Shown: positions 1 to 20,909, numbered from the stretch's first letter. The stretch is DNA of 64,000 nt from an uncultured Actinomycetes bacterium (GCA_963829545.1 CAWHIX010000008.1:127324-191323), one strand, 5' to 3'. The notes: a model not told the origin generated them from the letters alone. A program made the numbers and translations.

Positions 1-1988
1 GCGAGAACCCCGACCGCGGCCTGTTCCAGGGCAACGGTGCCTTCGGCGGCGGCGTGGTCCAGCCCAGCGGCGACGTGCTCAGGCTGGGCTTCAACCACGT
101 CATCGGCCTGGCCAAGGCCGAGATGGAGAAGATGAAGACCGAAGGGTTCGGGGAAATGCGCGCGAGCACCAATGCGCTGCGCAAGTGGTACCTGCTCAAG
201 TCCATCGTCATCATGTTCGAGGCCCTCATAACCTTCGCCAAGCGGCATGCCGCGCTGGCGCGCGAGCTGGCCGAGAAGACGACCGATCCGGTCCGCAAGG
301 CCGAACTCCTCAAGATCGCCGACGTGTGCGAGCGCGTACCGGCCGAGCCGCCGCGCGATTTCTGGGAGGCCGTCCAGTCGGTGCGCTTCATGCATCTGTC
401 GGCCTGGAAAGAAAGCTCCGACCGCGCCGAGGTTCCAGTCGGTCGTATCGACCAGTTCTGGTATCCCTACTACAAGGCCGACATCGAGAGCGGCAAGATC
501 ACGCGCGCCCAGGCCGCCGAACTGATCGGGGCGATGTGGCTCAAGATCCGCGAGGTCGAGAACCTGGTCACCATCAAGCGCGAGCACCGCGCCGCCCCGG
601 GCAGCCAGTTGCCGAACGTCACGCTGTGCGGGCGCGACAAAGACGGCAACGATCTCACCAACGAGCTTTCCTGGATCGTCCTCGAGGTCATGGCTCAGAT
701 CCACTTGTCCGAGCCGGCCGTCTACGTGCGCTACCACGAGGATCAGGACGAGGACTTCATCGTCCATGCCCTCAAGTGCAACCGTGAGTTCGGCGGCGGC
801 AACCCCGCGTTCCTCAACGACGAGCTGGGCACTCGGCGCTACCTCGATCGCGGCGTACCCATAGAGGACGCCTGCAACTGGAACGCCAGTGGCTGCCTCG
901 GCTACCACATGGAGTGCGCGGAGCACATGGCCGGCGCGTTCAACTTGGTGCAGACCAAGGTCATGGAGGTGACCCTGCACGATGGTTTCGACCCGCGCAC
1001 CGGCAAGCAGATCGGCCTGCATACGGGCGACCCGAGGAACTTCACCTCCATCGAGCAACTCCACGAAGCCTTCCTCAAGCAGGAGGACTACTTCGCGGAG
1101 AAGATGCGCGAGCACTACTTCATCTGGTGGACCACCGAGGCCGCCAACAGCCCCATGAGCGGGCTGCGTGCCGGCATGCTGTTCCGCGACTGCATCCCCG
1201 CCGGTATCGCCTCACGCGAGGGCGGCTGCCGCTATCCCGTGGGGAAGGCCTCGTGGGTGGGCGACAAGGGCATCTGTGACTGCGCCGACTACATGGCCGA
1301 CATCCAGTACCTGGTCTTTGACGAGAAGAAAGTCACCATGGCGCAACTGCTCGAGGCCATGGACGCCAACTGGGAAGGCCACGAGGACATCCGCCAGATG
1401 TGCCTGAAAGCTCCCAAGTACGGCAACGACGACGACTACGTCGACGACTGGTATGTCCGTCTGTCGCGGGACACCCAGGCGATCCTGCAGAGCCGTCCCG
1501 ACCCCATCACCGGTGAGAAGCCCATGCTGTTCAAGGGTGCCGCAGCCGGTCATGTGACCCAGGGCAAAGCCGTGGGCGCCATGCCCAACGGCCGCTTCGC
1601 AGGCACTCCCATCTACGACGGCGGCACCTCCGCCATGGCCGGTGGAGACGTCAGCGGCCCGACGGCCCTCATACTGTCCGCCACCAAGTACCCGACCGCC
1701 TACGAATGCGCCGGTGTGGCCCATAACATGAAGTTCTCCAAGGCGGTCCTCAATTCGCCTGAGAAGCTGCGCAAGATGGCGGCGCTCATCAAGACCTTCA
1801 ACAAGCGCGACGGATGGCACATCCAGTTCAACATCCACAGTGCCGCCGAGCTCATGGAGGCCCGCGAGAAGCCCGAGGCCCACAAAGACCTGCTCGTCCG
1901 TGTGGGCGGCTACAGTGCGTACTTCGTCGATCTGCCGCCCGAACTCCAGGAGGAGATCGTAGAGCGCACCATGCACGAAGTCGGGTAA
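1..1988 (+). CDS. Glycyl radical enzyme (GRE), C-terminal about 650 aa; the 5' end lies upstream of the window. It belongs to the PFL2 / eliminase-decarboxylase-like clade and the substrate is unknown.
   Basis: The reading frame is open back to base 1 (E-N-P-D-R-G...). The C-terminus RVGGYSAYFVDLPPELQEEIVERTMHEV carries the conserved glycyl-radical motif RVxGYSA(F/Y)F and the downstream ...Q.(D/E)II.RT.HE pattern of non-PFL GREs. A cognate activase gene follows immediately. Confidence 0.85.
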   Translation, partial: ENPDRGLFQGNGAFGGGVVQPSGDVLRLGFNHVIGLAKAEMEKMKTEGFGEMRASTNALRKWYLLKSIVIMFEALITFAKRHAALARELAEKTTDPVRKAELLKIADVCERVPAEPPRDFWEAVQSVRFMHLSAWKESSDRAEVPVGRIDQFWYPYYKADIESGKITRAQAAELIGAMWLKIREVENLVTIKREHRAAPGSQLPNVTLCGRDKDGNDLTNELSWIVLEVMAQIHLSEPAVYVRYHEDQDEDFIVHALKCNREFGGGNPAFLNDELGTRRYLDRGVPIEDACNWNASGCLGYHMECAEHMAGAFNLVQTKVMEVTLHDGFDPRTGKQIGLHTGDPRNFTSIEQLHEAFLKQEDYFAEKMREHYFIWWTTEAANSPMSGLRAGMLFRDCIPAGIASREGGCRYPVGKASWVGDKGICDCADYMADIQYLVFDEKKVTMAQLLEAMDANWEGHEDIRQMCLKAPKYGNDDDYVDDWYVRLSRDTQAILQSRPDPITGEKPMLFKGAAAGHVTQGKAVGAMPNGRFAGTPIYDGGTSAMAGGDVSGPTALILSATKYPTAYECAGVAHNMKFSKAVLNSPEKLRKMAALIKTFNKRDGWHIQFNIHSAAELMEAREKPEAHKDLLVRVGGYSAYFVDLPPELQEEIVERTMHEVG

Positions 1989-2076
1989 GCAAGACCGTTC
2001 ATCCCTGGGGCGCCGCCGCCGAAGGCGGCGGCGCCCCGAAGGGTTCTCTCATGATTCGAGCGAGGAGTGATCGGCA

Positions 2077-2988
2077 GTGACCAGCGTTACTGGGACCGTT
2101 TTCAATATCCAAAGGTACAGCATCGACGATGGTCCGGGCATCCGCACTACCGTCTTCTTCAAGGGTTGCCCGCTGAGTTGCGTGTGGTGCTCCAACCCGG
2201 AGTCTCAGAGCCCGGAGCCGGAACTCATGCATCGCGAATCCCTCTGCAAGCGCTGCTACCGCTGTGTGGAGGCCTGCTCCGTCGGTGCGGTCAGCATCGG
2301 CCCTGACGGTGTCGTCATCGACCGAGACCTCTGCACCGTCTGCGGGGATTGCGTTGAGGCTTGTCCGCACGACGCCATGCGCATCACAGGCAAACAGATG
2401 TCGGTGGATGAGGTGATCGCGGTGGCGGAGCGCGACCTGGACTTCTACCGCGACTCGGGTGGCGGCGTCACCCTTTCCGGGGGTGAGGTGCTGCTTCAGC
2501 CGGAGTTCGCCCTGGAGATCCTCAAGCGCCTGCACGACGCCGGCCTCCATACCTGCCTGGATACCTCTGGGCTGGGAGACACGGAAGGGCTGCGCAAGCT
2601 CCTTCCCTTCGTCGACCTCGTCTACTTCGACATCAAACACATCGACCCGAAGATCCACAAGGCCCAAGCCGGCCGTACGAACGAGGCCATCCTGCGCAAC
2701 TTTGGCGAGGTGGCCGCGAGCGGCGTCGAACTGGTGGTGAGGGTGCCCGTCGTCCCCTATTTCAACGATTCAAGCGACGCCATCTCCGACATCGCCGAGT
2801 TGGTCGCCGTGCATGCGCCGGGCGCGACCGTCCATCTGCTGCCCTATCATCGCTACGGACAGCAGAAGTACGGGATGCTCGGTCTGGACTACGAGCTGGC
2901 GGCGGCCGAATCTCCGTCACAGGACTTCATGAAGGCGGCCTGCAAGATCCTGCAGACCCGTGGGCTTACCTGCGAGGTGGCCGTCTAG
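2077..2988 (+). CDS. Glycyl-radical-enzyme activating enzyme (radical SAM) with two extra ferredoxin-like [4Fe-4S] motifs.
   Basis: N-terminus VFNIQRYSIDDGPGIRTTVFFKGCPLSCVWCSNPES is the PFL-activase radical-SAM CxxxCxxC signature. Two CxxCxxCxxxCP motifs lie between residues 50 and 100. It sits directly 3' of the GRE gene. Confidence 0.9.
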   Translation: MTSVTGTVFNIQRYSIDDGPGIRTTVFFKGCPLSCVWCSNPESQSPEPELMHRESLCKRCYRCVEACSVGAVSIGPDGVVIDRDLCTVCGDCVEACPHDAMRITGKQMSVDEVIAVAERDLDFYRDSGGGVTLSGGEVLLQPEFALEILKRLHDAGLHTCLDTSGLGDTEGLRKLLPFVDLVYFDIKHIDPKIHKAQAGRTNEAILRNFGEVAASGVELVVRVPVVPYFNDSSDAISDIAELVAVHAPGATVHLLPYHRYGQQKYGMLGLDYELAAAESPSQDFMKAACKILQTRGLTCEVAV

Positions 2989-3021
2989 CGTCGGCCGCCG
3001 ACTATCAGAGAGAGGGGACTG

Positions 3022-3456
3022 ATGGAGGACCATCTGGGCACTGTCATCACAGGGACCATCGGCGTCGACGCCCATGTGATAGGCACGAAGGTCATATCGA
3101 GGGCTCTGCGCGAAGCCGGCTTCAAAGTCGTAGAACTGGGCGCCCAGACACCGGCCGAGGAGTTCATCATGGCCGCCCAGGAGACTGCGGCGGACGCCAT
3201 GATGATCAGTTCTCTGTACGGCATGGCCGAGATGGATCTCGAGGGTTTCAGGGACAAGTGCACCGAGGCGGGTCTGGAAGATATCCTGCTCTACGTGGGC
3301 GGCATCCTGGGCGTGTCGCGGCGCAACTTCGCCGAGGACGAAGCCAAGTTCAAGGGGATGGGGTTCGATCGCGTATATCCGCCGGAGACCGATATCCGTG
3401 AGGGTATCGCCGATCTCAAGGCCGACCTCAGCCTTAAGCTTGCCGAGCGCCCCTAA
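3022..3456 (+). CDS. Glutamate mutase S (sigma) subunit-like B12-binding protein (MutS/GlmS type, 144 aa).
   Basis: DxHxxG motif (GVDAHVIGTKV). The conserved blocks SSLYGMAEMDLEGFRDKCTEAGL and FKGMGFDRVYPP match, from memory, the Clostridium glutamate mutase S protein ([23 protein letters not shown] / FKAMGFDRVYPP). Confidence 0.8.
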   Translation: MEDHLGTVITGTIGVDAHVIGTKVISRALREAGFKVVELGAQTPAEEFIMAAQETAADAMMISSLYGMAEMDLEGFRDKCTEAGLEDILLYVGGILGVSRRNFAEDEAKFKGMGFDRVYPPETDIREGIADLKADLSLKLAERP

Positions 3457-3494
3457 GGTCCGGCGGGCGGATCTTCACGGGTAGGTCGGTCTTC

Positions 3495-4937
3495 GTGAGC
3501 GACATCCGGCTCTTCGTCGATTTCGGCAGTACCTTCACCAAGCTGGTGGCCTTCGACCTGGAGGCCGAGGAACTTCTGGGCCGGGTACAGGTGCCGTCAA
3601 CGGTCGATCGAGATATCACCGTCGGCCTCGAAGAAGCCTTCTCTCTCCTGGCTGAGACGGTCCCCATCGGAGAGGCCGAGCGCCGGCGCACGGTGGCCTG
3701 CAGCAGCGCCGCCGGCGGGCTCAGAGTCGTGTGTGTCGGCCTGGTGCCGGAGTACACCACCGAAGCGGGTCGGAGGGCGGCTCTGGGGGCCGGAGCCAAG
3801 ATCGTCGGCTCCTACTCCTTCGAGTTGACCGAGGCCGAGCTGCGCGAGATCGGGGAGATAGCTCCGGATATCGTCCTGCTCACAGGGGGGACCGACGGCG
3901 GCAATCAGAAGGTGATCACGCACAACGCCGCCATGCTGGCACGGTCGGGGCCCGGCGTGACGAACATCATCGTGGCGGGTAACAAGTCGGCCTACGACGC
4001 CGTCGAGGCGCTGTTCTCCGGCTCCGGCAAGAACGTCATCTACACCTCCAACGTCATGCCCGAGATCGGCGTGCTCGAGGTCGATGCGGCCAACGGCAAG
4101 ATTCGCGACCTGTTCATCGCCCGCATCACCGAGGCCAAGGGCATCGGCCGGGCTCGGAGCATGATCGCCGACGTGATCATGCCCACGCCGGCGGCCGTCC
4201 TCGAGGCTGCGAAGCTGCTCGCCGACGGCACCGCCGGGCAGCCGGGTCTGGGCGAGTTGCTGCTGGTAGATGTCGGCGGGGCCACGACGGATGTGTACTC
4301 CGTCGCCAAAGGAACACCCGCAAACGGCTCGGTCCACGTCGTCGGCCTGCCCGAACCCTACGCGAAGCGAACGGTCGAGGGCGATCTCGGCCTGTTCCAC
4401 AATCTGGATACCTTGCAGGAGACCGTGGAACCGGACAACATGCCTCCGGGCTTCCCCGAGGCGGTTGCAGCCATGCGTGCCGAGAACAGCGTGCCCTCGG
4501 GAGTGGAGCAGGTCGCCTGCCACCTCTTGCTGACCAAGGCGGCCGTCCGCTCGGCGGTGAACCGTCACGCGGGTTCGCTCAAGTCTGTGGCGACTCCCAA
4601 CGGAGAGGTATGGCTGCAGCGGGGCAAGGACCTCACTGAGGTCGGCTGGCTGGTGGGCGCCGGGGGTCCCGTCTGCTTCTCGGCCGATCCCGTCCAGGTG
4701 CTCGAGGGCGCAGTGTTCGAGCCCGGCTTCCCCATGTTGCTCAAGCCCAAGGCGCCGCAGATGCTCCTCGACGCACACTACATTCTCTTTGCCCTGGGCC
4801 TCCTCGCCCAGAGCGAACCCTTGAAGGCCCTGGCGCTGATGCGGAGGTACGTGACGCCTCTGCAGTCTCCACGATCGCCGGCTCACGAGGAACGCACGAC
4901 CAGCCAGGAAAGGACGGAGGAACATGTCGGGGTCTGA
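3495..4937 (+). CDS. GlmL/MutL-like ATPase (glutamate mutase accessory protein family; actin/ASKHA fold).
   Basis: GTG start. N-terminus RLFVDFGSTFTKLVAFD is the phosphate-1 motif of the GlmL family. The protein is 480 aa and sits directly after the glmS-like gene, as in clostridial glmS-glmL-glmE operons. No glmE follows. Confidence 0.7.
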   Translation: MSDIRLFVDFGSTFTKLVAFDLEAEELLGRVQVPSTVDRDITVGLEEAFSLLAETVPIGEAERRRTVACSSAAGGLRVVCVGLVPEYTTEAGRRAALGAGAKIVGSYSFELTEAELREIGEIAPDIVLLTGGTDGGNQKVITHNAAMLARSGPGVTNIIVAGNKSAYDAVEALFSGSGKNVIYTSNVMPEIGVLEVDAANGKIRDLFIARITEAKGIGRARSMIADVIMPTPAAVLEAAKLLADGTAGQPGLGELLLVDVGGATTDVYSVAKGTPANGSVHVVGLPEPYAKRTVEGDLGLFHNLDTLQETVEPDNMPPGFPEAVAAMRAENSVPSGVEQVACHLLLTKAAVRSAVNRHAGSLKSVATPNGEVWLQRGKDLTEVGWLVGAGGPVCFSADPVQVLEGAVFEPGFPMLLKPKAPQMLLDAHYILFALGLLAQSEPLKALALMRRYVTPLQSPRSPAHEERTTSQERTEEHVGV

Positions 4938-5397
4938 TGCGCAGAAGTACTTTGTTAGTAGACCGGCCTACGAGATCGTCCCGGCCGTCGAGGTGGCGGG
5001 TCGCATACCCGCCATGACCCTGCTGAGCAACAACCTTATCCCCGGCGCCGACAACTACGTGGAGGCCGGCTGGATACTGGCCATGCCCGATCCGCCGACC
5101 CACATCTTCGAGCACGTGCACGACTACGACGAGATCGTCATGCACATCGGCACCGATCCCAACGATCCGGAGGATCTGGGGGCCGAGATCGAGTTCGTTG
5201 TGGACGGAGAGCCGCTCATACTCACCAAGACCTCTTCCGTGTTCGTGCCCAAGGGTGTGAAGCATGGTCCCTTGACTTGGAAGTCGTTCAGCAAGCCCCA
5301 CTTGGAGATGACGGTCATGCTCGGCGCCGGCAGTCTGGCCGAAGCCGATCCCGGTGGCCACATGGAGAAGATGGAACAGGGCGGTGTGGAGAAGTGA
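4924..5397 (+). CDS. Small metal-binding cupin, 157 aa, function unknown (family A, copy 1).
   Basis: Cupin motif 1 HVHDYDEIVMHIG (HxHxxxE) and motif 2 VPKGVKHGP (PxGxxH). It overlaps the end of the GlmL-like gene. Confidence 0.6.
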   Translation: MSGSDAQKYFVSRPAYEIVPAVEVAGRIPAMTLLSNNLIPGADNYVEAGWILAMPDPPTHIFEHVHDYDEIVMHIGTDPNDPEDLGAEIEFVVDGEPLILTKTSSVFVPKGVKHGPLTWKSFSKPHLEMTVMLGAGSLAEADPGGHMEKMEQGGVEK

Positions 5398-5876
5398 GCG
5401 AGTCGAAGTACGGCAAGTACATCCTCACCGAGGACCGCATGCCGCCCATGCCCGAGGCGATGGTCAAGGCCATGGATGATCAGGCGAAAGAGGGCAAGAC
5501 ACTCGACCGGACGATGCTGCTGGGCATCATGGACTCCATCGTGCCCGGGTGCTCGCTCTTCGCGGGCTGCGAGATCCTGTGGGGACTCCCCGGGGGCCAA
5601 CCGGTCGACATCGAGATACCTCACAGCCACGATTTCGACGAGATCATTGGGTTCGGCGGGACGAACCGGAACTACCCCCGGGAACTGGGCGGCGAGATCG
5701 AGTTCCACATGGGGGGCGAGACGCACACCATCACCAAGACCTGCCTCATCTTCGTGCCCAAGGGCGTGGAACACTGTCCGGTCACCCTCAAGCGTATCGA
5801 TACCCCCATCTTCATGTTCGAAGCGGCCAACGACCCCGACTACGTGAAGCAGTTCCAGCCTGAGACCGTAGAATGA
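5395..5876 (+). CDS. Small metal-binding cupin, paralogue of the preceding gene (family A, copy 2).
   Basis: GTG start overlapping the stop of the previous gene (GTGA). Motifs HSHDFDEIIGFGG and VPKGVEHCP. It aligns along its whole length with 4924..5397. Confidence 0.6.
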
Positions 5877-5886
5877 GGAGAGACTC

Positions 5887-6381
5887 ATGGCGATGACCTA
5901 CGACGAGTTCGCTGCCTGGATAGACGAGTACTTCGAGGCCTTCAACCTTTATGGCCAGGACCCGGCTGAGATCCACCGCATGGACAAGTACTTCTCCAAG
6001 GATGTGGTGTACAACCCCTACATCGCCTACGTGGGCAAGGTGACCGGCCGGGACAACTGGTACAAGGTACTCACGTCACACCCCTCCGGCATCGAGCGGT
6101 TGACCCCCGAGCACTTGGTCATCGATGAAGGGCGGCAGGTCTTCGTCGCCCAGATAAGGACCGACATAATCGACCGCGACACCCAAGAGCTACTGCTCAC
6201 CAAGCGCTATCTGTGCCGCTATCCCCTGGTGGAAGAGGACGGTGTCATGAAGATCGAGCGCCTCGACTTCTTCTGGGAGATCCTGCCGGCGGGCGCCCTG
6301 GAGATCGACGATGTCTTCGAACGTGACTGGAAACAGAACGCCGACGGACCGCAGCGCATGCTCGGAGGAGGAACAGAATGA
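5887..6381 (+). CDS. NTF2/SnoaL-like (ketosteroid-isomerase-fold) protein, copy 1.
   Basis: 164 aa. N-terminal pattern (D/E)xxxWxDEYFEAFN and overall hydrophobic patterning are typical of the SnoaL/NTF2-like superfamily. It is paralogous to the following ORF. Confidence 0.55.
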   Translation: MAMTYDEFAAWIDEYFEAFNLYGQDPAEIHRMDKYFSKDVVYNPYIAYVGKVTGRDNWYKVLTSHPSGIERLTPEHLVIDEGRQVFVAQIRTDIIDRDTQELLLTKRYLCRYPLVEEDGVMKIERLDFFWEILPAGALEIDDVFERDWKQNADGPQRMLGGGTE

Positions 6382-6839
6382 AACCGACGCGCGACGACAT
6401 CGTGAAGTGGATGAACGACTATTTCGCCGAGTACAACGCCAGCGCGCAGGACGCTGAGACCGTTCACGCCATGGACACGTACTTCGCCCCCGACCTCACC
6501 TTCATACCTTATATGAGCGCCTTCGGCGGGCCGGGAGCGGCGATCACCGGCAGTGAGAATTTCTACCGTACGCTGACCACTCATCCCGACGACTACGAGA
6601 GGTTCGAAGTACTCGACATCTTCGTCGACGAGGAGCGCCTGGTGTCGGTCGCGTTTCTGATCGCGCGGATCTTCAGTACGAAGACCGACGAACTGCTGGT
6701 GCAGAAGCACTACCTGCCTCTCTATGAACTGGCCATCAACGACGACGGCGAGCTGAAGATCAAGACCATCCGGTTCTTCTGGGAAGCCTCTCCCCCGGAG
6801 GTCGACGCAAACTACTCAGGCGCGGCGAAGGGACGATAG
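6378..6839 (+). CDS. NTF2/SnoaL-like protein, copy 2 (tandem paralogue).
   Basis: 153 aa. IVKWMNDYFAEYNA corresponds to FAAWIDEYFEAFNL in copy 1. The ATGA overlap indicates translational coupling. Confidence 0.55.
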   Translation: MKPTRDDIVKWMNDYFAEYNASAQDAETVHAMDTYFAPDLTFIPYMSAFGGPGAAITGSENFYRTLTTHPDDYERFEVLDIFVDEERLVSVAFLIARIFSTKTDELLVQKHYLPLYELAINDDGELKIKTIRFFWEASPPEVDANYSGAAKGR

Positions 6840-6843
6840 CAAG

Positions 6844-8937
6844 ATGACGTCTAAGTACGAGAAGCTCCTTGAGCCCGGCCGCATCGGGCCCGTGACCACC
6901 CGCAACCGCATCCTCAAAACCGGTGCGGGCATGCTCATGTGGCACGAGGACGACGTCCACATGCGGCCGGAGATGCTGGCCTTCTACGAGCGCATGGCGC
7001 GCGGGGGCACCGGTCTCATAATCGTCGAGTCGCCCACCATCGACTACCCCGCCGGGGCGCGCTGGCGCCAGCGCTACCGTATCGACGACGACCGCTTCAT
7101 CGAGGGGATGAAGGAACTGGTAGACGTCATGCACAAGCATGGCTGCCCGACCTTCATGCAGATGAACCACGATGGTCCCTGGCAGGTCAATCTGTCCCAC
7201 ATCGAGCCCAACCAGGTGTTCGCGGGGCCGCCCTTGGGCGCCTCGCCGGTCTCGGTGCCCTGCGTAGCCGATTTCCACAACGAGGTCCCGCGCGAGATCA
7301 CCATCGCGGAGATCGAAGGCCTGGTGGACAAGTTCGCCGCGGCGGCGGAGCGGGCCAAGAAGGCGGGCTTCGACGGCGTCGACGTCAACGCCGCCAGCAG
7401 CCATCTGCTCCACAACTTCCTGTCCCCGTTCTGGAATCGCCGCACCGATATCTACGGCGGCTCGAGCGAGAACCGCTCCCGCTTTCCCGGCCAGGTGATC
7501 ACCGAGATCAAGCGCCGCTGCGGCAAGGACTTCGCCTGCACCGTCATCATCAACGGGCTCGAGGTCGGCCAGGTCCTGGGCTTCGAAGACAGCCAGATGC
7601 TCACCCCGCAGATCGCTCGCGAGAACGCGCGTTGGCTCGAGAAGGCCGGGGCCGACGCCATCATGGTGAGAAGCCACTGGCTCGGCTACCACGTTCCCGG
7701 GTATCTCACCGACCTGCTCTTCTACCCCGAGCCGCCCATCCCGCTGGAGGACTTCCCCAAGGAGTACTACGCCAAGGAACTGGGGGCAGGTGCCAATACC
7801 CTGCTTGCCGCCGGTATCAAGAAAGAGGTCTCCATCCCGGTCACGGTCGTGGGCAGGCTCGACGCCGACATGGGCGAGAGGGTTCTTGAAGCGGGCATGG
7901 CCGACTTCATCGGCATGACCAGACGCCTCCACGCCGATCCGGACTACGTGAACAAGTTGCGCGAAGGCCGTCTGGACGACATCGCCCCGTGCACCGGCTG
8001 CGACAATTGCCTGGGTACCAAGCGTTGCAGGATCAACGCTCTGCTGGGCACGCCCTACACCGACATCGAGAAGGCCGACAAGAAGAAGAAGGTTCTCGTG
8101 ATCGGCGGCGGTCCGGGCGGTATGGAAGCCGCCCGTGTCTCGGCCCTTCGCGGCCACGACGTGACCCTGTACGAGAAGGCCCCCAAGCTCGGCGGGCTGC
8201 TTCCCATCGCCGCCATCGTCAAGGGTCCTCATCCCGAGGACGTGCCCCTGATCGCCGAATACCTCGAGGGCCAGATTCGCAAGCTGGGTGTGAAGGTGGT
8301 CACAGGCAAAGAGGCCGGCATGGCCACGGTCGAGCAGATCAAGCCGGACGTGGTCTTCATGGCCACCGGCGCCACGGCGACCATCCCGGCCATCAAGGGG
8401 ATCGACCGGTCGAACGTGGTGAGCGGCGCGGCCTTGCACAAGAAGCTCAAGATGGCCACACGCTTCGTGTCGCCCTACAGGCTTCGCTACCTTACGAAGT
8501 TCTACATGCCCATGGGCAAGAAGGTCGTCGTGATCGGCGGCGCGCTTCAGGGTTGCGAGCTGGCCGAGTTCTTGGTCAAGCGCGGCCGCACCGTGACCAT
8601 CGTCGAGCAGGCGGAGATGCTGGGCGACGGTATGATCGACGCCGTCCTTGGCAATCTCATGATCTGGTTCGAGAAGAAGGGCGTTCGCATGCTCTCCGGC
8701 GTGAAGGAGTACGTGGAGATCACCGACCGGGGTCTGACGCTGGTGACCGGCGACGGGATGACCGTGACCCTGGAGGCCGACACCTTCGTCTCCGCACTAC
8801 CGCTGACGTCGAACGCGGATCTTCTGCCGGCGCTGAAGGAGAAGGTGGCGGAGGTCTACCCCATCGGTGACGGGAATCAGCCCGGCCTCATCGCCGACGC
8901 CATCGGCACGGGCCTGCGCACGGCTCGGGAAGTGTGA
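6844..8937 (+). CDS. OYE-family NADH:flavin oxidoreductase / enoate reductase with a C-terminal FAD/NAD(P)-binding domain and a [4Fe-4S] motif (2-enoate reductase / 2,4-dienoyl-CoA reductase architecture).
   Basis: 697 aa. N-terminal OYE TIM-barrel segment. CTGCDNCLGTKRC cluster motif. Rossmann dinucleotide fold VLVIGGGPGGMEAAR...LYEK. Confidence 0.85.
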   Translation: MTSKYEKLLEPGRIGPVTTRNRILKTGAGMLMWHEDDVHMRPEMLAFYERMARGGTGLIIVESPTIDYPAGARWRQRYRIDDDRFIEGMKELVDVMHKHGCPTFMQMNHDGPWQVNLSHIEPNQVFAGPPLGASPVSVPCVADFHNEVPREITIAEIEGLVDKFAAAAERAKKAGFDGVDVNAASSHLLHNFLSPFWNRRTDIYGGSSENRSRFPGQVITEIKRRCGKDFACTVIINGLEVGQVLGFEDSQMLTPQIARENARWLEKAGADAIMVRSHWLGYHVPGYLTDLLFYPEPPIPLEDFPKEYYAKELGAGANTLLAAGIKKEVSIPVTVVGRLDADMGERVLEAGMADFIGMTRRLHADPDYVNKLREGRLDDIAPCTGCDNCLGTKRCRINALLGTPYTDIEKADKKKKVLVIGGGPGGMEAARVSALRGHDVTLYEKAPKLGGLLPIAAIVKGPHPEDVPLIAEYLEGQIRKLGVKVVTGKEAGMATVEQIKPDVVFMATGATATIPAIKGIDRSNVVSGAALHKKLKMATRFVSPYRLRYLTKFYMPMGKKVVVIGGALQGCELAEFLVKRGRTVTIVEQAEMLGDGMIDAVLGNLMIWFEKKGVRMLSGVKEYVEITDRGLTLVTGDGMTVTLEADTFVSALPLTSNADLLPALKEKVAEVYPIGDGNQPGLIADAIGTGLRTAREV

Positions 8938-8996
8938 GCATGGTCCACGCGGGCGATACCACGAGCGGAAGCGGCGCCAGGGCGCGGCACGGCTAC

Positions 8997-10859
8997 ATGG
9001 GGAAGCTGCTGTTCGTCGACCTGACGAACAGGACGTTTCACGAAGAGGAGCTGTCGGAGGATACGGCGCGCCACTTCGTGGGCGGCTACGGCATCGGCGC
9101 TCGCATAATCATGGAGCGCACCAAGCCGGGGATCGACCCCCTGGGCCCGGAGAACATCTTCGGGATCGGGACCGGTCCGCTCACCCTTTCCGGTGTCTAC
9201 TCCACCTGCCGCTTCTCCACGATGGGCAAATCGCCGCTGACCGGCTACTGGGGCGATGCCAACTGTGGGGGCGATTTCGCCAATGCCTTCAAGGCCTCCG
9301 GCTACGATCTCGTCTTCTTCTCGGGGAAGGCCCCGTATCCCGTCTATCTGCTCATCACCGATGGGAAGGTGGAGCTGAAGGACGCCCGTCACCTGTGGGG
9401 CAAGGACACCACGGTCACCGAGGAGCTCATCAGGCAGGAGAACGTCAACAAGAAGCTCAAGGTGGCCGTCATCGGCCAGGCGGGCGAACGTCTCAGCCGG
9501 ATCGCGGCCGTGATGAACGACCGGGGACGGGCCGCCGCGCGCTCGGGGCTGGGAGCGGTCATGGGCTCGAAGAACCTCAAAGCCGTGGCCTGTACGGGCA
9601 GCGTGCGGCCTGAGCTGGTGGACAAGCCCCGCATCCAGGCCCTCATGAAGGAGATGATCAGACAGACGAAGGAGACCCCCTCGGGCATGTTCTATGGCCT
9701 CAGCCACGGGGGTACGCCAGGCGCCATGGTAATGCACATGCACGACCACGACGTGCCCATCAAGAACTGGAGCGGCAACACCGTCGACGACTTCCCCGAG
9801 TCCAGGTGGGGCTCGGTCGCGCTCGACGGCATGCTCAAGTACATCAAGAAGAGCTACGCCTGCACGGGCTGCCCGGTGGCCTGCGGCTCGGAGCTCACGG
9901 TCGAGGAGGGCAAGTACCCGGTCCGCGACTCGCACAAGCCCGAGTACGAGACCCTGGCCGCCTTTGGGCCCATGTGTCTGAACGACAACATGGAATCGCT
10001 GATCTACCTGAACGAACTGTGCAACCTGCACGGCATGGACACCATCTCGGCGGGCGCCACTCTGGCCTTCGCCATCGACTGTTACGAGAACGGCATCCTC
10101 TCCAAAGCAGACACCGACGGCCTCGAGCTGACCTGGGGCAACAGCGACGCCCATGTGGCGGTGCTGGAGAAGATGTGCCGACGCGAGGGCATCGGCGACA
10201 TCTTGGCCGACGGGGCCAAATGGGCCGCGGAGAAGATCGGCGGGGGCTCGGAAAGCCTGGCCATGCACGCCGGCGGAGAGATGCTCGCCATGCACGATCC
10301 CCGCTGCTTCCCCGGCTGGGGGGCCACCTACATCTCCGATGCCACCCCGGGCAGACATACACGGGGAGGAACGGCCTTTCCCGAGCACGGCGGCGTGAAC
10401 GAGATCGTGTATGCGGGCCTGGGCGTGCCCTTCAAACTGGACCCCTACGATTCGACCGACAAGGGGAAGTACCATGCCCTGCTTGCCGGATGGCAGCATT
10501 GGGTGAACACTTCGGGTGCCTGTCTCTTCGGCGTCGACAGTATGCCTCTCGACTTCGTGGGCTGCATGCGCGCCATAACCGGTTGGGACCTCGACTACGA
10601 CGAGATCATCGAGACCGGTAACCGCATCACCACGCTCCTCCACGCCTTCAACCTACGGGAGGGCTTTCAGCCGGGCGACTTCAGGCTTCCGGAGAGGGCG
10701 AGGGGCAATCCTCCGCTGGAAGCAGGCGGTCTTGAGGGCGTGACCGTGGATTCCGAGGGTCTCAAGCGGCAGTTCTACGAAGCCATGGGTTTCGACCCGG
10801 CGACGGGGGCCATCGCTCCCGAGCGGATCGTCGCCCTGGGACTGGATGATGTGCTGTAG
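8997..10859 (+). CDS. Tungsten-type aldehyde:ferredoxin oxidoreductase (AOR family), copy 1.
   Basis: N-terminus YMGKLLFVDLTNRTF and internal AVMGSKNLKAV are typical of the AOR N-terminal domain. About 620 aa. Alternative starts GTG 8934 or ATG 8940 overlap the OYE stop. Confidence 0.85.
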   Translation: MGKLLFVDLTNRTFHEEELSEDTARHFVGGYGIGARIIMERTKPGIDPLGPENIFGIGTGPLTLSGVYSTCRFSTMGKSPLTGYWGDANCGGDFANAFKASGYDLVFFSGKAPYPVYLLITDGKVELKDARHLWGKDTTVTEELIRQENVNKKLKVAVIGQAGERLSRIAAVMNDRGRAAARSGLGAVMGSKNLKAVACTGSVRPELVDKPRIQALMKEMIRQTKETPSGMFYGLSHGGTPGAMVMHMHDHDVPIKNWSGNTVDDFPESRWGSVALDGMLKYIKKSYACTGCPVACGSELTVEEGKYPVRDSHKPEYETLAAFGPMCLNDNMESLIYLNELCNLHGMDTISAGATLAFAIDCYENGILSKADTDGLELTWGNSDAHVAVLEKMCRREGIGDILADGAKWAAEKIGGGSESLAMHAGGEMLAMHDPRCFPGWGATYISDATPGRHTRGGTAFPEHGGVNEIVYAGLGVPFKLDPYDSTDKGKYHALLAGWQHWVNTSGACLFGVDSMPLDFVGCMRAITGWDLDYDEIIETGNRITTLLHAFNLREGFQPGDFRLPERARGNPPLEAGGLEGVTVDSEGLKRQFYEAMGFDPATGAIAPERIVALGLDDVL

Positions 10860-10890
10860 TGCATACAACTCGACCATACGGAGCCGACTG

Positions 10891-11721
10891 ATGTATCTCG
10901 AGAACAGAGTGGCGATAGTGACCGGCGGAGCCAAGGGCATGGGCAGAGGCATCGCCCTCAAGTTCGCCGAGGAGGGAGCGGACGTGGTGGTCTGCGACCT
11001 GGACCTGCCGGGCGCGCAGAGCGTGGCCCGGGAGATCGAGGCCTTGGGCCGAAAAGGCCTGGCCTTCAGGACCGACATCACGAACAGCTCGGAGATCAAG
11101 GAGATGGTGGCCGGCACCCTCGAGGGGCTGGGTACCATCGATGTGCTGATCAACTGCGCCGGCGGGGTGGGGGGAACCCACGGTTCGGGCGCAACTGGGA
11201 CCATGAGCGAGGAAGAATGGGACAGGGTGCTCGCGATCAACCTCAAAGGCCCCTGGCTGGTGACCGAAGCCGTGCTGCCCACCATGAAAGAGAAGAAGTA
11301 CGGCAAGATAGTCTTCATCTCCTCTACGGGGGCCGTGTCCCCGGTGGTGTCGGTGCTTCACTACCATGCCGCCAAAGCCGGCGTGATCGGCCTCGCTCTG
11401 AACCTCGCTTTTGAGCTGGCACCACAGAACATTTGCGTGAACACGATCGTCCCGGGGCCGGTCGAGACTCCCTTCTGGGATGCGCTCATGCCTGCCGGCC
11501 CGGAGCGCGACACTTTCTTCGCGGCCGTCTCGAAGCACGAGGTACCGCTGGGCAGGATGGGACAACCGAAGGACATCGCCGGGGCCTGCCTCTTCCTCTC
11601 CTCGGAACTCTCCGACTACGTGACCGGGCAGACCATCTGCGTGGCAGGAGGCCAGCCCATGCTGTCCCAGCAAGCCACCTTCAACATCGAAGCCTATCTG
11701 AAAGATCGAGGCCTACTATGA
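10891..11721 (+). CDS. Short-chain dehydrogenase/reductase (SDR).
   Basis: RVAIVTGGAKGMGRGIA glycine-rich NAD(P) motif, YxxxK present, about 276 aa. Confidence 0.85.
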   Translation: MYLENRVAIVTGGAKGMGRGIALKFAEEGADVVVCDLDLPGAQSVAREIEALGRKGLAFRTDITNSSEIKEMVAGTLEGLGTIDVLINCAGGVGGTHGSGATGTMSEEEWDRVLAINLKGPWLVTEAVLPTMKEKKYGKIVFISSTGAVSPVVSVLHYHAAKAGVIGLALNLAFELAPQNICVNTIVPGPVETPFWDALMPAGPERDTFFAAVSKHEVPLGRMGQPKDIAGACLFLSSELSDYVTGQTICVAGGQPMLSQQATFNIEAYLKDRGLL

Positions 11722-12597
11722 GCGACCTACAGGGAAAAGTCGCCCTGGTCACAGGAGCGGCGGCCAAGAGGAGCATGGGTCGCGCCATCGCCGCGCAACT
11801 GGCCAAGGACGGGGCCGACGTGGCCGTGGCGGACAAGTTCTCTGCTCCCGCCAGCATCTGGCCCGGCGATGAGGGCTGGACTGGGCTCGACGCGGTGGTG
11901 GAGGAGATCGAGGCGCAAGGTCGGAAGGGTCTGGCCATCGCCGGTGACGTCAGCGCGAGCGCCGACGTCGACGCCATGGTGGCTCGGACGCTGGAGAAGT
12001 TCGGGAAGATAGATATCCTGGTCCATTGCGTGGGCGTCCGCGGTCCCGTACCGGTGCCCATCGTCGAACTGGACGAATCCACGTGGAGGATGCTCCTCGA
12101 CGTCAACCTGACGGGCGCCTTCCTGATCTCCAAAGCGGTGGCCAAGAACATGATCCCGGACGCAGCGCCGGGGGCGCCCCCGGCTTCCGCCGAGGGCAAG
12201 AAGATCAGTCCTCATCTCTTCCATGGCCGGGGTGGGGCCCTATCCCGGCGGGGCCGGCTACTGCGCCTCCAAGCATGGGGTGCTGGGACTCATGAAGACC
12301 CTGGCCCGAGAGCTGGCGCCCTACAAGATCAACGTCAACGCCATCAACCCCGGGGGCTTCGACACCAACTTCCGGGACGACAGTCTCATCAAGCAGGCGG
12401 AGCAGCGGGGCATCAGCGTGGAGGAATCGCTCAAGACCCCGCCGGCCGGACCCACCGGGAACGCCGGCCCGCCGCCCATCCCCTTGGGTCGCCTGGGTAC
12501 CCCGCAGGATGTCGCCGATCTGGTGTCGTTCCTCGTGTCAGACCGTGCCAAGTACATCACCGGCGAAGACGTCAACCTGGCCGGGGGCGCCAGCTGA
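11718..12597 (+). CDS. SDR with one apparent frameshift near position 12170-12210.
   Basis: N-terminal part (KVALVTGAAAKRSMGRAIA...) is in frame 0 up to about 12200. C-terminal part (ISSMAGVGPYPGGAGYCASKHGV..., ORF 12223..12597) is in frame +1. The break is at a G/C-rich run. Confidence 0.7.
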
Positions 12598-12637
12598 GAC
12601 CGACGGTCTCGCCGAGCTGGAGAAGGAGGTATCTCGC

Positions 12638-17173: not shown

Positions 17174-17174
17174 C

Positions 17175-18006
17175 ATGGGCAAGGTGATGGTCATAGACAT
17201 CACGAAGTGCAACGGCTGCTACAACTGCCAGATAGCCTGCAAGGACGAGCACTGCGGCAACGACTGGTCGCCTATCGCCAAACCGCAGCCGCTCAGCGGC
17301 CAGTTCTGGCACAAGGTCACCGACCGGGTGCGCGGCCAGGTACCCAAGGTCAAGGTGGCCTACGAGCACACCATCTGCCAACACTGCGCCGATGCGCCAT
17401 GCATGACGGCCTGTCCCGAGAAGGCCATCTACAGGCGCTCTGACGGAGCCGTGGTCATCGATCCGCAGGTCTGCAAGGGCAACCACAGTTGCGTGGAGAG
17501 CCTGCCCCTACGAGGGCGTGGTGTACTTCAACGAGGACCTCAAGATCGCGCAGAAGTGCACGTTCTGCGCGCATCTCCTCGACAAGGGATGGACCCAGAC
17601 CCGCTGCTCGGAGGCCTGTCCCACCGGGGCCATCTCCTTCGGGGAAGAAGAGGAACTTGCAGAACTGATCGCCGGAGCGGAACTGCTCCGTCCCGATCTG
17701 GATACAGGTCCGCGCGTGTACTACATCGGCTTGCCCAAGACCTTCATCGGGGCGACCGTCTATGACCCCGAAGCAGACGAGGTGGTGGAGCAGGCCCTGG
17801 TGACTCTGGAGCGGCTGGGAGACGAGGCGCCGGTGACGGCGCATACCGACGAGTTCGGCGACTTCTGGGTCGACGGCCTGCAGACCGGCGTCTACAACGT
17901 ATCCGTGGCGAAGGATGGCTACGTCACCATCGACATGGCGGCGGTGACGGTCGACAAGGACCTGAATCTCGGCGACCTTCCCATGCAGCAAGAGCGGAGG
18001 CGGTGA
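17175..18006 (+). CDS. Transhydroxylase-like small (beta, ferredoxin-type) subunit, module 1, with one apparent frameshift near 17505.
   Basis: MVIDITKCNGCYNCQIACKDEH corresponds to BthL MVIDVAKCQDCNNCFMGCMDEH. The C-terminal part is in the second ORF (17518..18006) with KPRVYY...GDFW...DLNLGDL. Restoring ..VESCPYEGVVYF requires a 1-nt indel in a cc run. Confidence 0.8.
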
Positions 18007-18302
18007 ACGTGAGAGCCATAGTGAACATGATGTCCGGCAAGGTGGGCGGCGTTGTGGGCTGGCGTGCCCGTGAGATCCGCGTGGACAAGCCTACCGTGAC
18101 CGTTGAGGACATCTTCCGGTCGGTGACCCTGAAGGATAGCGACACGACCCTGTACGACCTGATCTGCGAGGAGCAGGGGCTCAAGCCGGAGTATGCGGTG
18201 TTCATCGGCGGCGAGTTCATGCGGGGCGCCTACGACTGGCAGCGCCCCATCATCGACTCCGAGCAGATCCACGTGGCCGACTGGCCAATGAGCGACTCCT
18301 AG
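18003..18302 (+). CDS. Small hypothetical protein (99 aa) between transhydroxylase modules. Possible MoaD/ThiS-like beta-grasp fold without the terminal Gly-Gly.
   Basis: GTG start overlapping the stop of the previous gene. The C-terminal segment YAVFIGGEFMRGAYDWQRPIIDSEQIHVADWPMSDS resembles the MoaD pattern VAVNGEFV...L.DGDEV.I.PPVSGG but ends in DS. The fold assignment is inferred. Confidence 0.45.
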   Translation: MNVRAIVNMMSGKVGGVVGWRAREIRVDKPTVTVEDIFRSVTLKDSDTTLYDLICEEQGLKPEYAVFIGGEFMRGAYDWQRPIIDSEQIHVADWPMSDS

Positions 18303-18318
18303 ACAAGGGGCGGACACG

Positions 18319-20907: not shown

Positions 20908-20909
20908 CC

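What the first reader, a model, noticed from the sequence alone, without database searches (positions are those of the whole stretch)
1..4937. Glycyl radical enzyme plus activase immediately followed by an orphan glmS-glmL pair (no glmE)
- The GRE/activase pair belongs to the non-PFL eliminase/decarboxylase clade. Its substrate is unknown.
- It is contiguous with a clear glutamate-mutase S (B12-binding, DxHxxG) gene and a GlmL-like ATPase. The catalytic glmE (large subunit) that normally follows glmL is absent.
- Two cupin genes follow instead.
- So either the B12-binding protein and its ATPase serve a different partner here, or glmE lies upstream of the window.
- I do not know of a described system that combines a radical-SAM-activated GRE with a B12-binding/GlmL pair in one operon.
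Basis: partly seen in the sequence, partly recalled or inferred. Interest (0 to 1): 0.65.

Follow-up and report, generated by a model that had tools for sequence, protein, structure and literature searches.

The report
Glycyl-radical enzyme with split B12 mutase
The B12-binding protein and helper ATPase beside this glycyl radical enzyme are not orphans, because their catalytic partner gene lies about 16-18 kb upstream in close relatives; together they expose an undescribed pairing of two radical enzymes, found in several kinds of bacteria, both with altered active sites and unknown chemistry.

Summary
The window holds a 5'-truncated glycyl radical enzyme (GRE), its activase, a GlmS-type B12-binding protein, a GlmL ATPase and two cupin-like genes. 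It holds no glmE.

The "orphan" reading fails. Two same-species contigs (97.6% and 96.4% nucleotide identity) carry a GlmE-like gene plus a PrpD-like gene 15.2-16.5 kb upstream of the GRE, on the same strand. Two other Actinomycetota lineages show the same layout.

Low-GC loci, some from named Bacillota genomes, carry the same set as one compact operon: GRE-activase-GlmE-GlmS-GlmL(-PrpD). In 56 of 120 relatives GlmE is fused to a GlmS domain that is 61-77% identical to the window's GlmS.

This is still not an ordinary glutamate mutase operon.
- All 121 GlmE-like proteins keep the three carboxylate-binding arginines but have Pro in place of catalytic Glu171.
- No methylaspartase gene was seen in any annotated locus.
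- The GRE family has the Cys loop SGCLGYH. It lacks the CXE glutamate that a 2026 review reports in every characterised eliminase and isomerase. It passes no curated family cutoff.
- Glm genes lie within 10 kb of the GRE in 44 of 92 loci.
- Seven full-text searches found no description of the pairing.

Substrates remain unknown.

The parts
3..1988 (+). Glycyl radical enzyme, C-terminal 661 of 851 residues. It belongs to a distinct family with the Cys loop SGCLGYH.
   Evidence: Pfam PFL-like and Gly_radical. 100% identical to P0001. Fails every NCBIfam cutoff, including TIGR01774 (470.7 vs 678.2).
888..908 (+). GRE Cys loop S-G-C-L-G-Y-H. Gly occupies the position of the CXE glutamate found in eliminases and isomerases.
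   Evidence: Coordinates. An SGCLGYH-type loop occurs in 107 of the 120 closest homologues, and 7 more have close variants. Pairwise alignments to HpzG, HypD, IslA and GD support the mapping.
1899..1925 (+). Glycyl radical motif RVGGYSAYF.
   Evidence: Coordinates. Present in 114 of 120 homologues.
2077..2988 (+). GRE-activating radical SAM enzyme. The CPLSCVWC motif is at 2167-2190, and there are two ferredoxin-like cluster motifs.
   Evidence: TIGR02494 scores 350.7 bits against a cutoff of 174.35. Pfam Radical_SAM and Fer4.
3022..3456 (+). GlmS-type adenosylcobalamin-binding subunit (DAHVIG at 3067-3084). Inferred partner of the GlmE-like gene about 16-18 kb upstream of window position 1.
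   Evidence: Passes the NCBIfam methylaspartate mutase S cutoffs. 52% identical to C. cochlearium GlmS. 61-77% identical to the S domain of natural GlmE~GlmS fusions. dN/dS 0.02-0.09.
3495..4937 (+). GlmL/MutL-family ATPase, the presumed chaperone or reactivase of the mutase.
   Evidence: PF13941 scores 4e-149 and NF040745 scores 511.9 against a cutoff of 475. 61% identical to the GlmL of the compact Bacillota operon L015. dN/dS 0.11-0.20.
4924..5397 (+). Cupin-like protein A.
   Evidence: Weak Cupin_2 hit. Profile hit to solved cupins at E = 1e-4. Conserved in most Actinomycetota loci.
5394..5876 (+). Cupin-like protein B. GTG start overlaps the stop codon of cupin A.
   Evidence: The start position is inferred from the ortholog alignment.
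5887..6839 (+). Two NTF2/SnoaL-like proteins (5887-6381 and 6378-6839).
   Evidence: SnoaL_2 weak hit. Conserved synteny.
6844..8937 (+). Fe-S flavoenzyme of the OYE / 2-enoate-reductase type.
   Evidence: Pfam Oxidored_FMN and Pyr_redox_2. Closest NCBIfam models are the mycofactocin-system FadH/OYE, bilirubin reductase and BaiCD, all below cutoff. The family was clustered in 26 of 95 GRE loci.
8934..10859 (+). Tungsten-type aldehyde:ferredoxin oxidoreductase.
   Evidence: AFOR_N and AFOR_C. Conserved synteny.
10846..11721 (+). Short-chain dehydrogenase, the last gene of the tightly packed run.
   Evidence: adh_short. Synteny.

Best explanation
glmS and glmL encode the cobalamin-binding subunit and the accessory ATPase of a split, divergent glutamate-mutase-like enzyme.

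Its catalytic subunit gene (GlmE-like), together with a PrpD-like gene, lies about 16-18 kb upstream of window position 1. It is on the same strand, inside one large catabolic island. This is shown in two same-species contigs and inferred for the window's own genome.

GlmS plus the upstream GlmE-like protein would form an E2S2-type adenosylcobalamin carbon-skeleton mutase, with GlmL servicing its cofactor. This is inferred by homology and from natural E~S fusions.

The mutase is probably not a glutamate mutase. It keeps the three arginines that hold two carboxylates but has Pro for the Glu that contacts the substrate amino group, next to an aromatic-rich stretch. Its substrate is most likely a dicarboxylate without a free alpha-amino group (inferred).

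The mutase module is a recurrent companion of one distinct GRE family that lacks the general-base Glu of eliminases. The two radical enzymes most likely act at different steps of one CoA-independent pathway. The alcohol, aldehyde and enoate oxidoreductases that surround them (Fe-ADH, SDR, AOR, OYE) would process the hydroxyl, carbonyl or enoate intermediates (inferred from context; the substrate is unknown).
For: - Location. contig_32116 is 97.6% identical to window 1-13437. It carries an identical GlmS and an intact 489-aa GlmE-like gene on the same strand, 16.5 kb upstream of the GRE start. contig_110167 (96.4%) has it 15.2 kb upstream. L100/L003 has it about 15.9 kb upstream, and L044 about 8.5 kb upstream.
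- Only one GlmS. No second GlmS lies next to the upstream GlmE.
- Natural fusions. 56 of 120 GlmE-like homologues are E~S fusions. Their S domain is 61-77% identical to the window's GlmS, which is only 52% identical to canonical GlmS.
- Compact operons. GRE-activase-GlmE-GlmS-GlmL(-PrpD) occurs as one operon in low-GC loci, some from named Bacillota genomes. The window's GlmS and GlmL are 74% and 61% identical to those.
- Co-occurrence. 44 of 92 non-redundant GRE loci have Glm genes within the retrieved flanks, and 20 of 28 do when at least 6 kb is available on both sides. The linkage is spread over all major GRE clades.
- Selection. GlmS has the lowest dN/dS in the cluster.
- GlmE-like active site. 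R66, R100, R149, Y181 and E330 are kept. E171 is Pro in 121 of 121, and T152 is Arg in 117.
- No methylaspartase Pfam family appears in the gene lists of L015, L016 and L099-L103.
- GRE Cys loop. CXE is reported for all characterised eliminases and isomerases (PMC13450708).
Against: - The sequence upstream of the window itself was not seen. The location of glmE is inferred from relatives with 96-98% nucleotide identity.
- No assembly or activity data exist.
- The GlmE-like proteins still just pass the NCBIfam methylaspartate-mutase-E cutoff (401-409 vs 390), so residual glutamate mutase activity is not excluded.
- About half of the GRE loci show no Glm gene within 10 kb. One close relative (83% identical GRE) has none. 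The GRE therefore does not strictly require the mutase.
- L017 has GlmL with the GRE and PrpD but no GlmS or GlmE within 10 kb.
- The order of the two enzymes in the pathway, and the substrates, are guesses.
Confidence: 0.72

Rival explanations
1. The pair is truly orphan. GlmS and GlmL serve a partner other than GlmE, either the GRE or its activase directly, or the adjacent cupin/NTF2 proteins.
For: - In Actinomycetota, glmS-glmL are always directly next to GRE-activase, while glmE is 8.5-16.5 kb away.
- In L017, GlmL sits beside the GRE and PrpD without GlmS or GlmE.
Against: - A GlmE-like gene without its own GlmS is present in the same island.
- Natural E~S fusions carry an orthologous S domain.
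- Low-GC loci carry E-S-L together.
- The cupins are missing in some loci that keep S and L, such as L005 and L010.
Confidence: 0.05
2. The GRE and the B12 mutase are B12-independent and B12-dependent isozymes for the same reaction, like the GRE and B12 forms of diol dehydratase or ribonucleotide reductase.
For: - There are precedents of GRE/B12 enzyme pairs (own knowledge).
- The GRE lacks the eliminase base, so other chemistry is conceivable. However, all three known GRE isomerases keep CXE, so this gives only weak support.
- Many GRE loci lack Glm genes.
Against: - Both sit in one tightly packed operon rather than under separate control.
- No cobalamin riboswitch or any other Rfam family was found in the window, L099, L015 or L020.
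- No known GRE performs a carbon-skeleton rearrangement (review).
Confidence: 0.08
3. This is an ordinary glutamate mutase for glutamate fermentation or 3-methylaspartate supply, lying near an unrelated GRE by chance.
For: - GlmS and GlmL pass the NCBIfam equivalog cutoffs.
- GlmE-like proteins narrowly pass TIGR01503.
Against: - Glu171 is Pro in 121 of 121 sequences, and the neighbouring segment is remodelled.
- No methylaspartate ammonia-lyase appears in any annotated locus.
- The linkage to this GRE family recurs in both high-GC and low-GC loci.
- The surroundings are aromatic or alicyclic-type oxidoreductases.
Confidence: 0.08
4. GlmS is a corrinoid methyl-carrier protein and GlmL its activator, serving an O-demethylase system in this island, which appears to handle lignin-type aromatic compounds.
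For: - LigM/DesA-like GCV_T genes lie upstream in relatives, and a URO-D-like gene lies in the window.
- The B12-binding domain gives weak hits to methyltransferase corrinoid proteins.
Against: - The corrinoid-protein models score 37-49 bits against cutoffs of 215-370, whereas the GlmS models pass.
- There is no B12-binding_2 cap domain; the protein is only 144 aa.
- LigM/DesA-type demethylases use tetrahydrofolate and need no corrinoid (own knowledge).
- The fusion and synteny evidence ties this S domain to GlmE.
Confidence: 0.02

Closest known systems
Adenosylcobalamin-dependent glutamate (methylaspartate) mutase GlmS/GlmE with accessory GlmL (Clostridium cochlearium, C. tetanomorphum; PDB 1CCW, 1I9C, 6H9E)
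   Same: - A separate small B12-binding subunit with DxHxxG, 52% identical to the canonical one.
- A GlmL that passes the equivalog cutoff.
- A GlmE-like subunit 39% identical over its full length.
- Arg66, Arg100, Arg149, Tyr181 and Glu330 are conserved.
   Different: - Glu171 is Pro, His150 is Ser/Cys and Thr152 is Arg. Residues 172-178 change from GGGISYN to NSFFGWI in the whole subfamily.
- No methylaspartase was seen nearby.
- The genes are split by about 20 kb in Actinomycetota.
- The genes are linked to a GRE and a PrpD-like gene.
GRE 1,2-eliminases and isomerases (HypD, HpzG/HpyG, IslA/IseG, HpsG, GD, PD, CutC, HplG, YbiW, PflD)
   Same: - Best sequence matches, with E values of 1e-112 to 1e-83.
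- One catalytic Cys on the Cys loop.
- A C-terminal glycyl motif.
- A dedicated activase with extra Fe-S motifs.
- Neighbouring alcohol and aldehyde oxidoreductases.
   Different: - The Cys loop is C-L-G, not C-X-E.
- The positions of GD His164 / IslA Gln193 and of IslA Arg678 align to a small residue (Ala or Gly) and to Phe. These mappings are tentative.
- The protein scores far below every equivalog cutoff and below the TIGR01774 subfamily cutoff.
Alkylsuccinate synthase pathways for anaerobic n-alkane degradation, in which a GRE step is followed by a B12-dependent carbon-skeleton rearrangement
   Same: This is the only described pathway type I know in which a GRE and a B12 mutase act in the same catabolic route. 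A paper on anaerobic n-hexane degradation (PMC7028053) came up in the search for these terms; I did not read it. The pathway description is from my own knowledge.
   Different: - There the GRE is an X-succinate synthase with small subunits.
- The mutase is of the methylmalonyl-CoA mutase type and acts on CoA esters.
- Here the GRE is eliminase-like, and the mutase is GlmE-type, a family that acts on free acids.
Nicotinate fermentation cluster of Eubacterium barkeri (2-methyleneglutarate mutase and downstream enzymes)
   Same: A B12 mutase rearranges a non-amino branched or unsaturated dicarboxylate produced by ring degradation, together with molybdenum hydroxylases and reductases (own knowledge). 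The window's island likewise holds molybdenum enzymes, reductases and a mutase for a probable non-amino dicarboxylate.
   Different: That mutase belongs to a different family, and no GRE is involved. The resemblance is a lead only and was not tested here.

Membership tests
Methylaspartate (glutamate) mutase, subunit S | B12-binding Rossmann-type domain with DxHxxG, scoring above the curated equivalog cutoffs | tested here: met
   NF002612 188.8 vs 110 and TIGR01501 164.4 vs 135.8. DAHVIG at 3067-3084.
Methylaspartate (glutamate) mutase, holoenzyme | Cognate E subunit with the glutamate-binding set, including Glu171, which contacts the substrate amino group | tested here: not met
   Glu171 is Pro in 121 of 121 GlmE-like homologues, including P0148 and P0165 from same-species contigs. 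The three arginines are kept. The role of Glu171 is from my own knowledge of the literature.
Methylaspartate (glutamate) mutase, holoenzyme | Pathway context: methylaspartate ammonia-lyase and mesaconate-pathway genes nearby | tested here: not met
   No MAAL Pfam family in the gene lists of L015, L016, L099, L100, L101, L102 and L103.
Methylaspartate (glutamate) mutase, holoenzyme | Glutamate to 3-methylaspartate activity | not testable with these tools
   Needs an enzyme assay.
GlmL / MutL accessory protein | PF13941 over the full length and the NF040745 equivalog cutoff | tested here: met
   PF13941 4e-149. NF040745 511.9 vs 475.
Glycyl radical enzyme superfamily (PFL-like) | PFL-like barrel, a Cys loop with a catalytic Cys, the C-terminal RVxG glycyl motif and an adjacent radical SAM activase | tested here: met
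GRE 1,2-eliminases / isomerases | [quoted passage not shown] | tested here: not met
   The loop is C-L-G. This is conserved in the family. The motif definition is from PMC13450708.
GRE 1,2-eliminases / isomerases | Score above a curated equivalog or subfamily cutoff (HypD, HpsG, CutC, TIGR01774) | tested here: not met
   Full-length P0001 scores 476 vs 1000, 456 vs 1100, 392 vs 1050 and 471 vs 678.
X-succinate synthases (GRE hydroalkylases) | BssA/AssA-type large subunit with small accessory subunits and a BssD-type activase | tested here: not met
   The activase scores 242 vs 496 on TIGR04003. BSS and MASS are weaker PDB matches than the eliminases. No small-subunit genes lie between the GRE and the activase, where the gap is 88 bp.
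Corrinoid methyl-carrier proteins of methyltransferase systems | B12-binding plus cap domain, scoring above the family cutoffs | tested here: not met
   37-49 bits against cutoffs of 215-370. Only PF02310 was detected in this 144-aa protein.
2-Methylcitrate dehydratase PrpD (for the upstream PrpD-like gene) | Score above the PrpD equivalog cutoffs | tested here: not met
   35-40 bits against cutoffs of 458-950. Only Pfam MmgE_PrpD family membership holds.

The most novel reading that the evidence does not exclude
The GRE with the SGCLGYH loop and the Pro171 GlmE-like mutase are two new radical-enzyme activities. The GRE would be a reaction type that needs no active-site Glu. The mutase would be the first GlmE-family enzyme acting on a substrate that is not an amino acid. 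Together they would form a previously unknown, CoA-independent catabolic route found in anaerobic Actinomycetota and in low-GC (partly Bacillota) genomes. One possibility is rearrangement of a 2-substituted C5 or C6 dicarboxylate, coupled to a radical lyase step whose carbonyl or enoate products go to Fe-ADH, AOR and enoate reductase. A more extreme reading is that GlmS/GlmL act on the GRE itself. That is not strictly excluded, but I put it at about 3%.
Probability: 0.35. Interest if true: 0.8.

Novelty: new variant of a known kind. Interest (0 to 1): 0.6.

Why it matters
Glycyl radical enzymes and adenosylcobalamin mutases are the two main ways anaerobes carry out difficult radical chemistry. 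Apart from anaerobic alkane degradation, I know of no pathway in which they work together.

Here one conserved gene module couples a GRE family lacking the catalytic Glu of all characterised eliminases and isomerases with a GlmE-type mutase lacking the Glu that defines glutamate recognition. Both are currently auto-annotated as "pyruvate formate-lyase" and "methylaspartate mutase". Those names are probably wrong for hundreds of database entries.

The module sits in islands rich in enzymes resembling those of polyphenol and lignin-monomer catabolism, in uncultured soil and sediment Actinomycetota. It also occurs in low-GC loci of unidentified origin.

Working out the two reactions would probably add a new GRE reaction class and the first non-glutamate GlmE-family mutase. 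It would also fill in an unknown step of anaerobic carbon turnover.

A practical lesson follows for genome scans. An apparently orphan subunit at the edge of a window can have its partner tens of kilobases away in the same island.

Tried and rejected
- Exact look-up of the window's activase found nothing on record. Look-ups through GRE, GlmE and GlmS relatives worked instead.
- 10 kb upstream of the GRE in the twin contig holds no glmE. That looked at first like support for "orphan". It was overturned when L044 showed GlmE 8.5 kb upstream and a GlmE search located it farther upstream.
- tblastn for GlmE in the window and in the flanks of the 11 Actinomycetota loci retrieved through GlmL (10 kb where the contig allowed) was negative. 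This was because the flanks were too short.
- The Rfam gathering scan of the window, L099, L015 and L020 gave no hit, so there is no cobalamin riboswitch to support isozyme-type regulation. A first attempt exceeded the size limit.
- Seven full-text literature searches for GRE combined with glutamate mutase, GlmL, PrpD, B12 mutase or Pelotomaculum returned nothing relevant. The Pelotomaculum hit was only a reference-list entry.
- Cluster-member look-up to name the cultured carriers gave no organism names.
- The corrinoid methyl-carrier reading was rejected on HMM scores.
- The X-succinate-synthase reading was rejected on HMM scores and PDB match ranking.
- All-against-all clustering of neighbouring ORFs mostly recovered families already known, plus antisense shadow ORFs. 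The one new recurrent neighbour was an iron-containing alcohol dehydrogenase.
- I did not run structure prediction. The model coordinates cannot be inspected here, so pocket analysis would not have been possible.

Full report
**1. What is in the window**

Positions 1-11721 hold a run of + strand genes with gaps of at most 88 bp or overlaps:
- a 5'-truncated glycyl radical enzyme (GRE, 3-1988)
- its radical SAM activase (2077-2988)
- a 144-aa B12-binding protein (3022-3456)
- a 480-aa MutL/GlmL ATPase (3495-4937)
- two cupin-like proteins
- two NTF2/SnoaL-like proteins
- an OYE-type Fe-S flavoenzyme
- an aldehyde:ferredoxin oxidoreductase (AOR)
- a short-chain dehydrogenase (SDR)

Pfam and NCBIfam confirm the four genes of the finding. 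The B12 protein passes both curated methylaspartate-mutase-S cutoffs and has the DxHxxG motif. GlmL passes its equivalog cutoff, and the activase passes TIGR02494. The GRE fragment is 100% identical to the 851-aa protein P0001. A GlmE query finds nothing in the 64-kb window.

**2. The arrangement is conserved**

A scan of species-representative genomes with GlmL returned 11 loci, all from uncultured Actinomycetota. They are labelled Actinomycetes, Thermoleophilia, Gaiellales and RBG_16_64_13. All 11 keep the order GRE-activase-GlmS-GlmL-(cupins)-NTF2-OYE-AOR-SDR-SDR-AOR. GlmS has the lowest dN/dS of the cluster (0.02-0.09), and GlmL has 0.11-0.20. These are working genes, not remnants.

**3. 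Where glmE is**

Ten kilobases upstream of the GRE in a near-identical contig showed no glmE. GRE homologues at about 65% identity pointed elsewhere. In a Bacillota genome the GRE sits in a compact operon, GRE-activase-GlmE-GlmS-GlmL-PrpD. The window's GlmS and GlmL are 74% and 61% identical to those.

A metagenome scan with a GRE alignment gave 80 further loci. One Actinomycetota-type locus, L044, has a GlmE-like gene about 8.5 kb upstream of the GRE. Searching with that GlmE found close relatives on the very contigs that carry the GRE cluster.

| Contig | Identity to window | GlmE stop to GRE start |
|---|---|---|
| contig_32116 | 97.6% over 13.4 kb | 16.5 kb |
| contig_110167 | 96.4% | 15.2 kb |
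| L100/L003 (a third species) | not compared with the window | about 15.9 kb |
| L044 | not compared with the window | about 8.5 kb |

- On contig_32116, the intact 489-aa GlmE-like gene P0148 lies at record positions 301971-300502. The GRE lies at 283992-281437. A GlmS identical to the window's lies at 280402-279968. All three are on the same strand.
- In window coordinates the gene would lie at about -18.5 to -15.8 kb.
- The upstream block is IclR-PrpD-like-SDR-AOR-GlmE-like-flavoprotein-SDR-ThiS-like-ABC transporter and so on.
- No second GlmS lies there.

**4. GlmS belongs with that GlmE-like protein**

Of the 120 closest GlmE-like proteins, 56 are natural fusions to a C-terminal B12 domain. 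That domain is 61-77% identical to the window's GlmS (median 71%), whereas the window's GlmS is only 52% identical to canonical GlmS. One such fusion lies in a 4.87-Mb genome in the order Fe-ADH-Fe-ADH-GRE-activase-GlmE~S-x-x-GlmL. Together with the compact operons, this argues strongly that GlmS is the B12 subunit of the upstream GlmE-like protein and that GlmL is its accessory factor. That inference rests on homology, fusion and synteny. No assembly data exist.

**5. It is not an ordinary glutamate mutase**

I aligned the subfamily to C. cochlearium GlmE, with which it shares 39% identity. In all 121 members:
- Arg66, Arg100, Arg149, Tyr181, Asn123 and Glu330 are kept.
- Glu171 is Pro in 121 of 121.
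- His150 is Ser or Cys.
- Thr152 is Arg in 117.
- Residues 172-178 change from GGGISYN to the aromatic-rich NSFFGWI.

From the literature as I know it, Glu171 contacts and deprotonates the substrate amino group, and the three arginines hold the two carboxylates. The likely substrate is therefore a di- or tri-carboxylate without a free alpha-amino group.

The proteins only just pass TIGR01503 (401-409 vs 390). The PrpD-like proteins are very far from true PrpD (35-40 bits vs 458-950). No methylaspartase family appears in any annotated locus.

**6. The GRE is also atypical**

The best PDB matches are eliminases: HpzG (8IOF), HypD, CutC, IslA and GD. However, the Cys loop reads S-G-C-L-G-Y-H. An SGCLGYH-type loop occurs in 107 of the 120 closest homologues, and 7 more carry close variants. 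Gly occupies the position of the CXE glutamate in every pairwise alignment.

The 2026 review by Imrich et al. states that all characterised 1,2-eliminases and all three GRE isomerases keep CXE. It also says that entire clades remain without experimental validation (PMC13450708). Two further mappings are tentative. The positions of GD His164 / IslA Gln193 and of IslA Arg678 align to a small residue (Ala or Gly) and to Phe. Full-length P0001 fails every NCBIfam cutoff, including the broad PFL2/glycerol-dehydratase subfamily (471 vs 678).

**7. Strength of the GRE-mutase link**

- Among 92 non-redundant GRE-bearing loci, 44 have GlmE, GlmS or GlmL within the retrieved flanks.
- Among the 28 loci with at least 6 kb on both sides, 20 do.
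- Eleven of the 92 loci were retrieved through GlmL and are therefore biased.
- In the Actinomycetota the E gene lies beyond 10 kb, so the counts for E are lower bounds.
- On a neighbour-joining tree of the GREs, the linked loci are spread over all major clades.
- Exceptions exist. A Thermoleophilia genome with an 83%-identical GRE has only the activase. One clade has PucR-SDR-Fe-ADH-GRE-activase without Glm genes. L017 has GlmL, the GRE and PrpD but no GlmS or GlmE. Pelotomaculum thermopropionicum SI keeps activase-GlmE-GlmS-PrpD without a GRE, flanked by mobile elements.

**8. How it most likely works**

- Shown: gene content, synteny, fusions and active-site substitutions.
- Inferred: GlmS and the GlmE-like protein form an adenosylcobalamin mutase, serviced by GlmL, that rearranges a non-amino carboxylic acid. 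The GRE, activated by its own radical SAM enzyme, performs a separate radical step in the same pathway.
- The recurrent neighbours suggest free-acid, hydroxyl, carbonyl and enoate intermediates rather than CoA esters. They are Fe-ADH, SDR, AOR and 2-enoate-reductase-type flavoenzymes, with no CoA ligase or transferase inside the core.
- The island in the window also holds four pyrogallol-transhydroxylase-like molybdenum enzymes. Relatives carry genes upstream that most resemble vinylphenol reductase and LigM/DesA-type O-demethylases, all below cutoff. This hints at polyphenol or lignin-monomer catabolism.
- The actual substrates and the order of the two radical steps are unknown.

**9. Rivals**

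- A true orphan pair serving the GRE or the cupins is disfavoured by the fusions and by the GlmS-less upstream GlmE.
- B12-dependent and B12-independent isozymes are disfavoured by co-operonic organisation and the absence of a B12 riboswitch.
- An ordinary glutamate mutase is disfavoured by Pro171 and the missing methylaspartase.
- A corrinoid methyl carrier is rejected on HMM scores.

**10. Verdict**

The "orphan glmS-glmL" puzzle has an ordinary answer: the partner gene is upstream, outside the window. It is a recurrent, apparently undescribed module that couples a GRE family and a GlmE-type mutase family, each with a changed catalytic residue. I file it as a new variant of known kinds, with interest 0.6.

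Noticed in passing
window 11703-14438, 17175-18006, 24116-26546, 48.6-49.9 kb: Several genes are split between reading frames: a second SDR, a second AOR, a molybdenum alpha subunit, a beta subunit and an aminotransferase. The SDR and AOR are intact in relatives L003-L009. The sibling contigs also differ from the window by many indels (24 gap openings in 13 kb). This points to long-read assembly errors rather than real pseudogenes.
   Followed up: partly
window 14564-28084: Four paralogous pyrogallol-transhydroxylase-like molybdopterin alpha subunits (three carry the AhtL-like first domain). They lie alongside three beta-like subunits (Fer4_11 plus CarboxypepD_reg domains). This suggests hydroxyl-transfer or dehydroxylation chemistry on polyphenols.
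   Followed up: partly
window 30420-34718: A paralogous mini-cluster: a second OYE-type flavoenzyme, three more cupin-like genes (33-40% identical to cupin A/B) and an SDR. It is followed by a URO-D-like protein, a Zn-ADH and an HpcH/HpaI-type aldolase (35.3-38.8 kb).
   Followed up: no
L103:2639-7212 compared with L099: A hydantoinase A/B pair (the acetone/acetophenone carboxylase or oxoprolinase family) is inserted between the PrpD-like gene and the SDR in one same-species contig. It is absent in the other, so island content varies at strain level.
   Followed up: no
L101 (Pelotomaculum thermopropionicum SI, AP009389, 2518921-2540390): A cultured organism carries MFS-GRE-type activase-GlmE-like-GlmS-PrpD-like with no GRE and no GlmL within 10 kb. 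Transposase, integrase and reverse-transcriptase genes flank it, so it is probably a decayed copy of the module.
   Followed up: partly
P0177-P0240; L102:10001-11914: About half of the GlmE-like subfamily (56 of 120) are single-chain GlmE~GlmS fusions of about 640 aa. Databases name them either subunit E or subunit S.
   Followed up: yes
L073:5301-12502; L066:6601-13735: A clade of the same GRE family without Glm genes has the order PucR-type regulator-SDR-Fe-ADH (one or two copies)-GRE-activase. The same Fe-ADH pair precedes the GRE in the Glm-linked locus L102. The GRE's substrate or product is probably an alcohol or a carbonyl compound.
   Followed up: partly
L017/L018:4415-14206: In two 6.6-7.4 Mb genomes, GlmL lies with SnoaL, OYE, MFS, the GRE and a PrpD-like gene. 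No activase, GlmS or GlmE lies within 10 kb. GlmL may have a role that does not depend on a nearby B12 subunit.
   Followed up: no
L002:10001-15828; L027: The closest GRE outside the Glm-linked Actinomycetota clade (83% identical, Thermoleophilia genome) has only the activase, followed by a two-component system. The mutase module can therefore be absent from the neighbourhood even in close relatives.
   Followed up: partly
L044:6324-7856; L001:7247-8605; L100:18045-19436: The upstream flavoproteins score best against vinylphenol reductase VprA (332-346 vs cutoff 600). A GCV_T protein scores best against the syringate and vanillate O-demethylases DesA and LigM (172 vs 580-800). All are below cutoff, so these are hints only that the island handles lignin-derived phenolics.
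   Followed up: no
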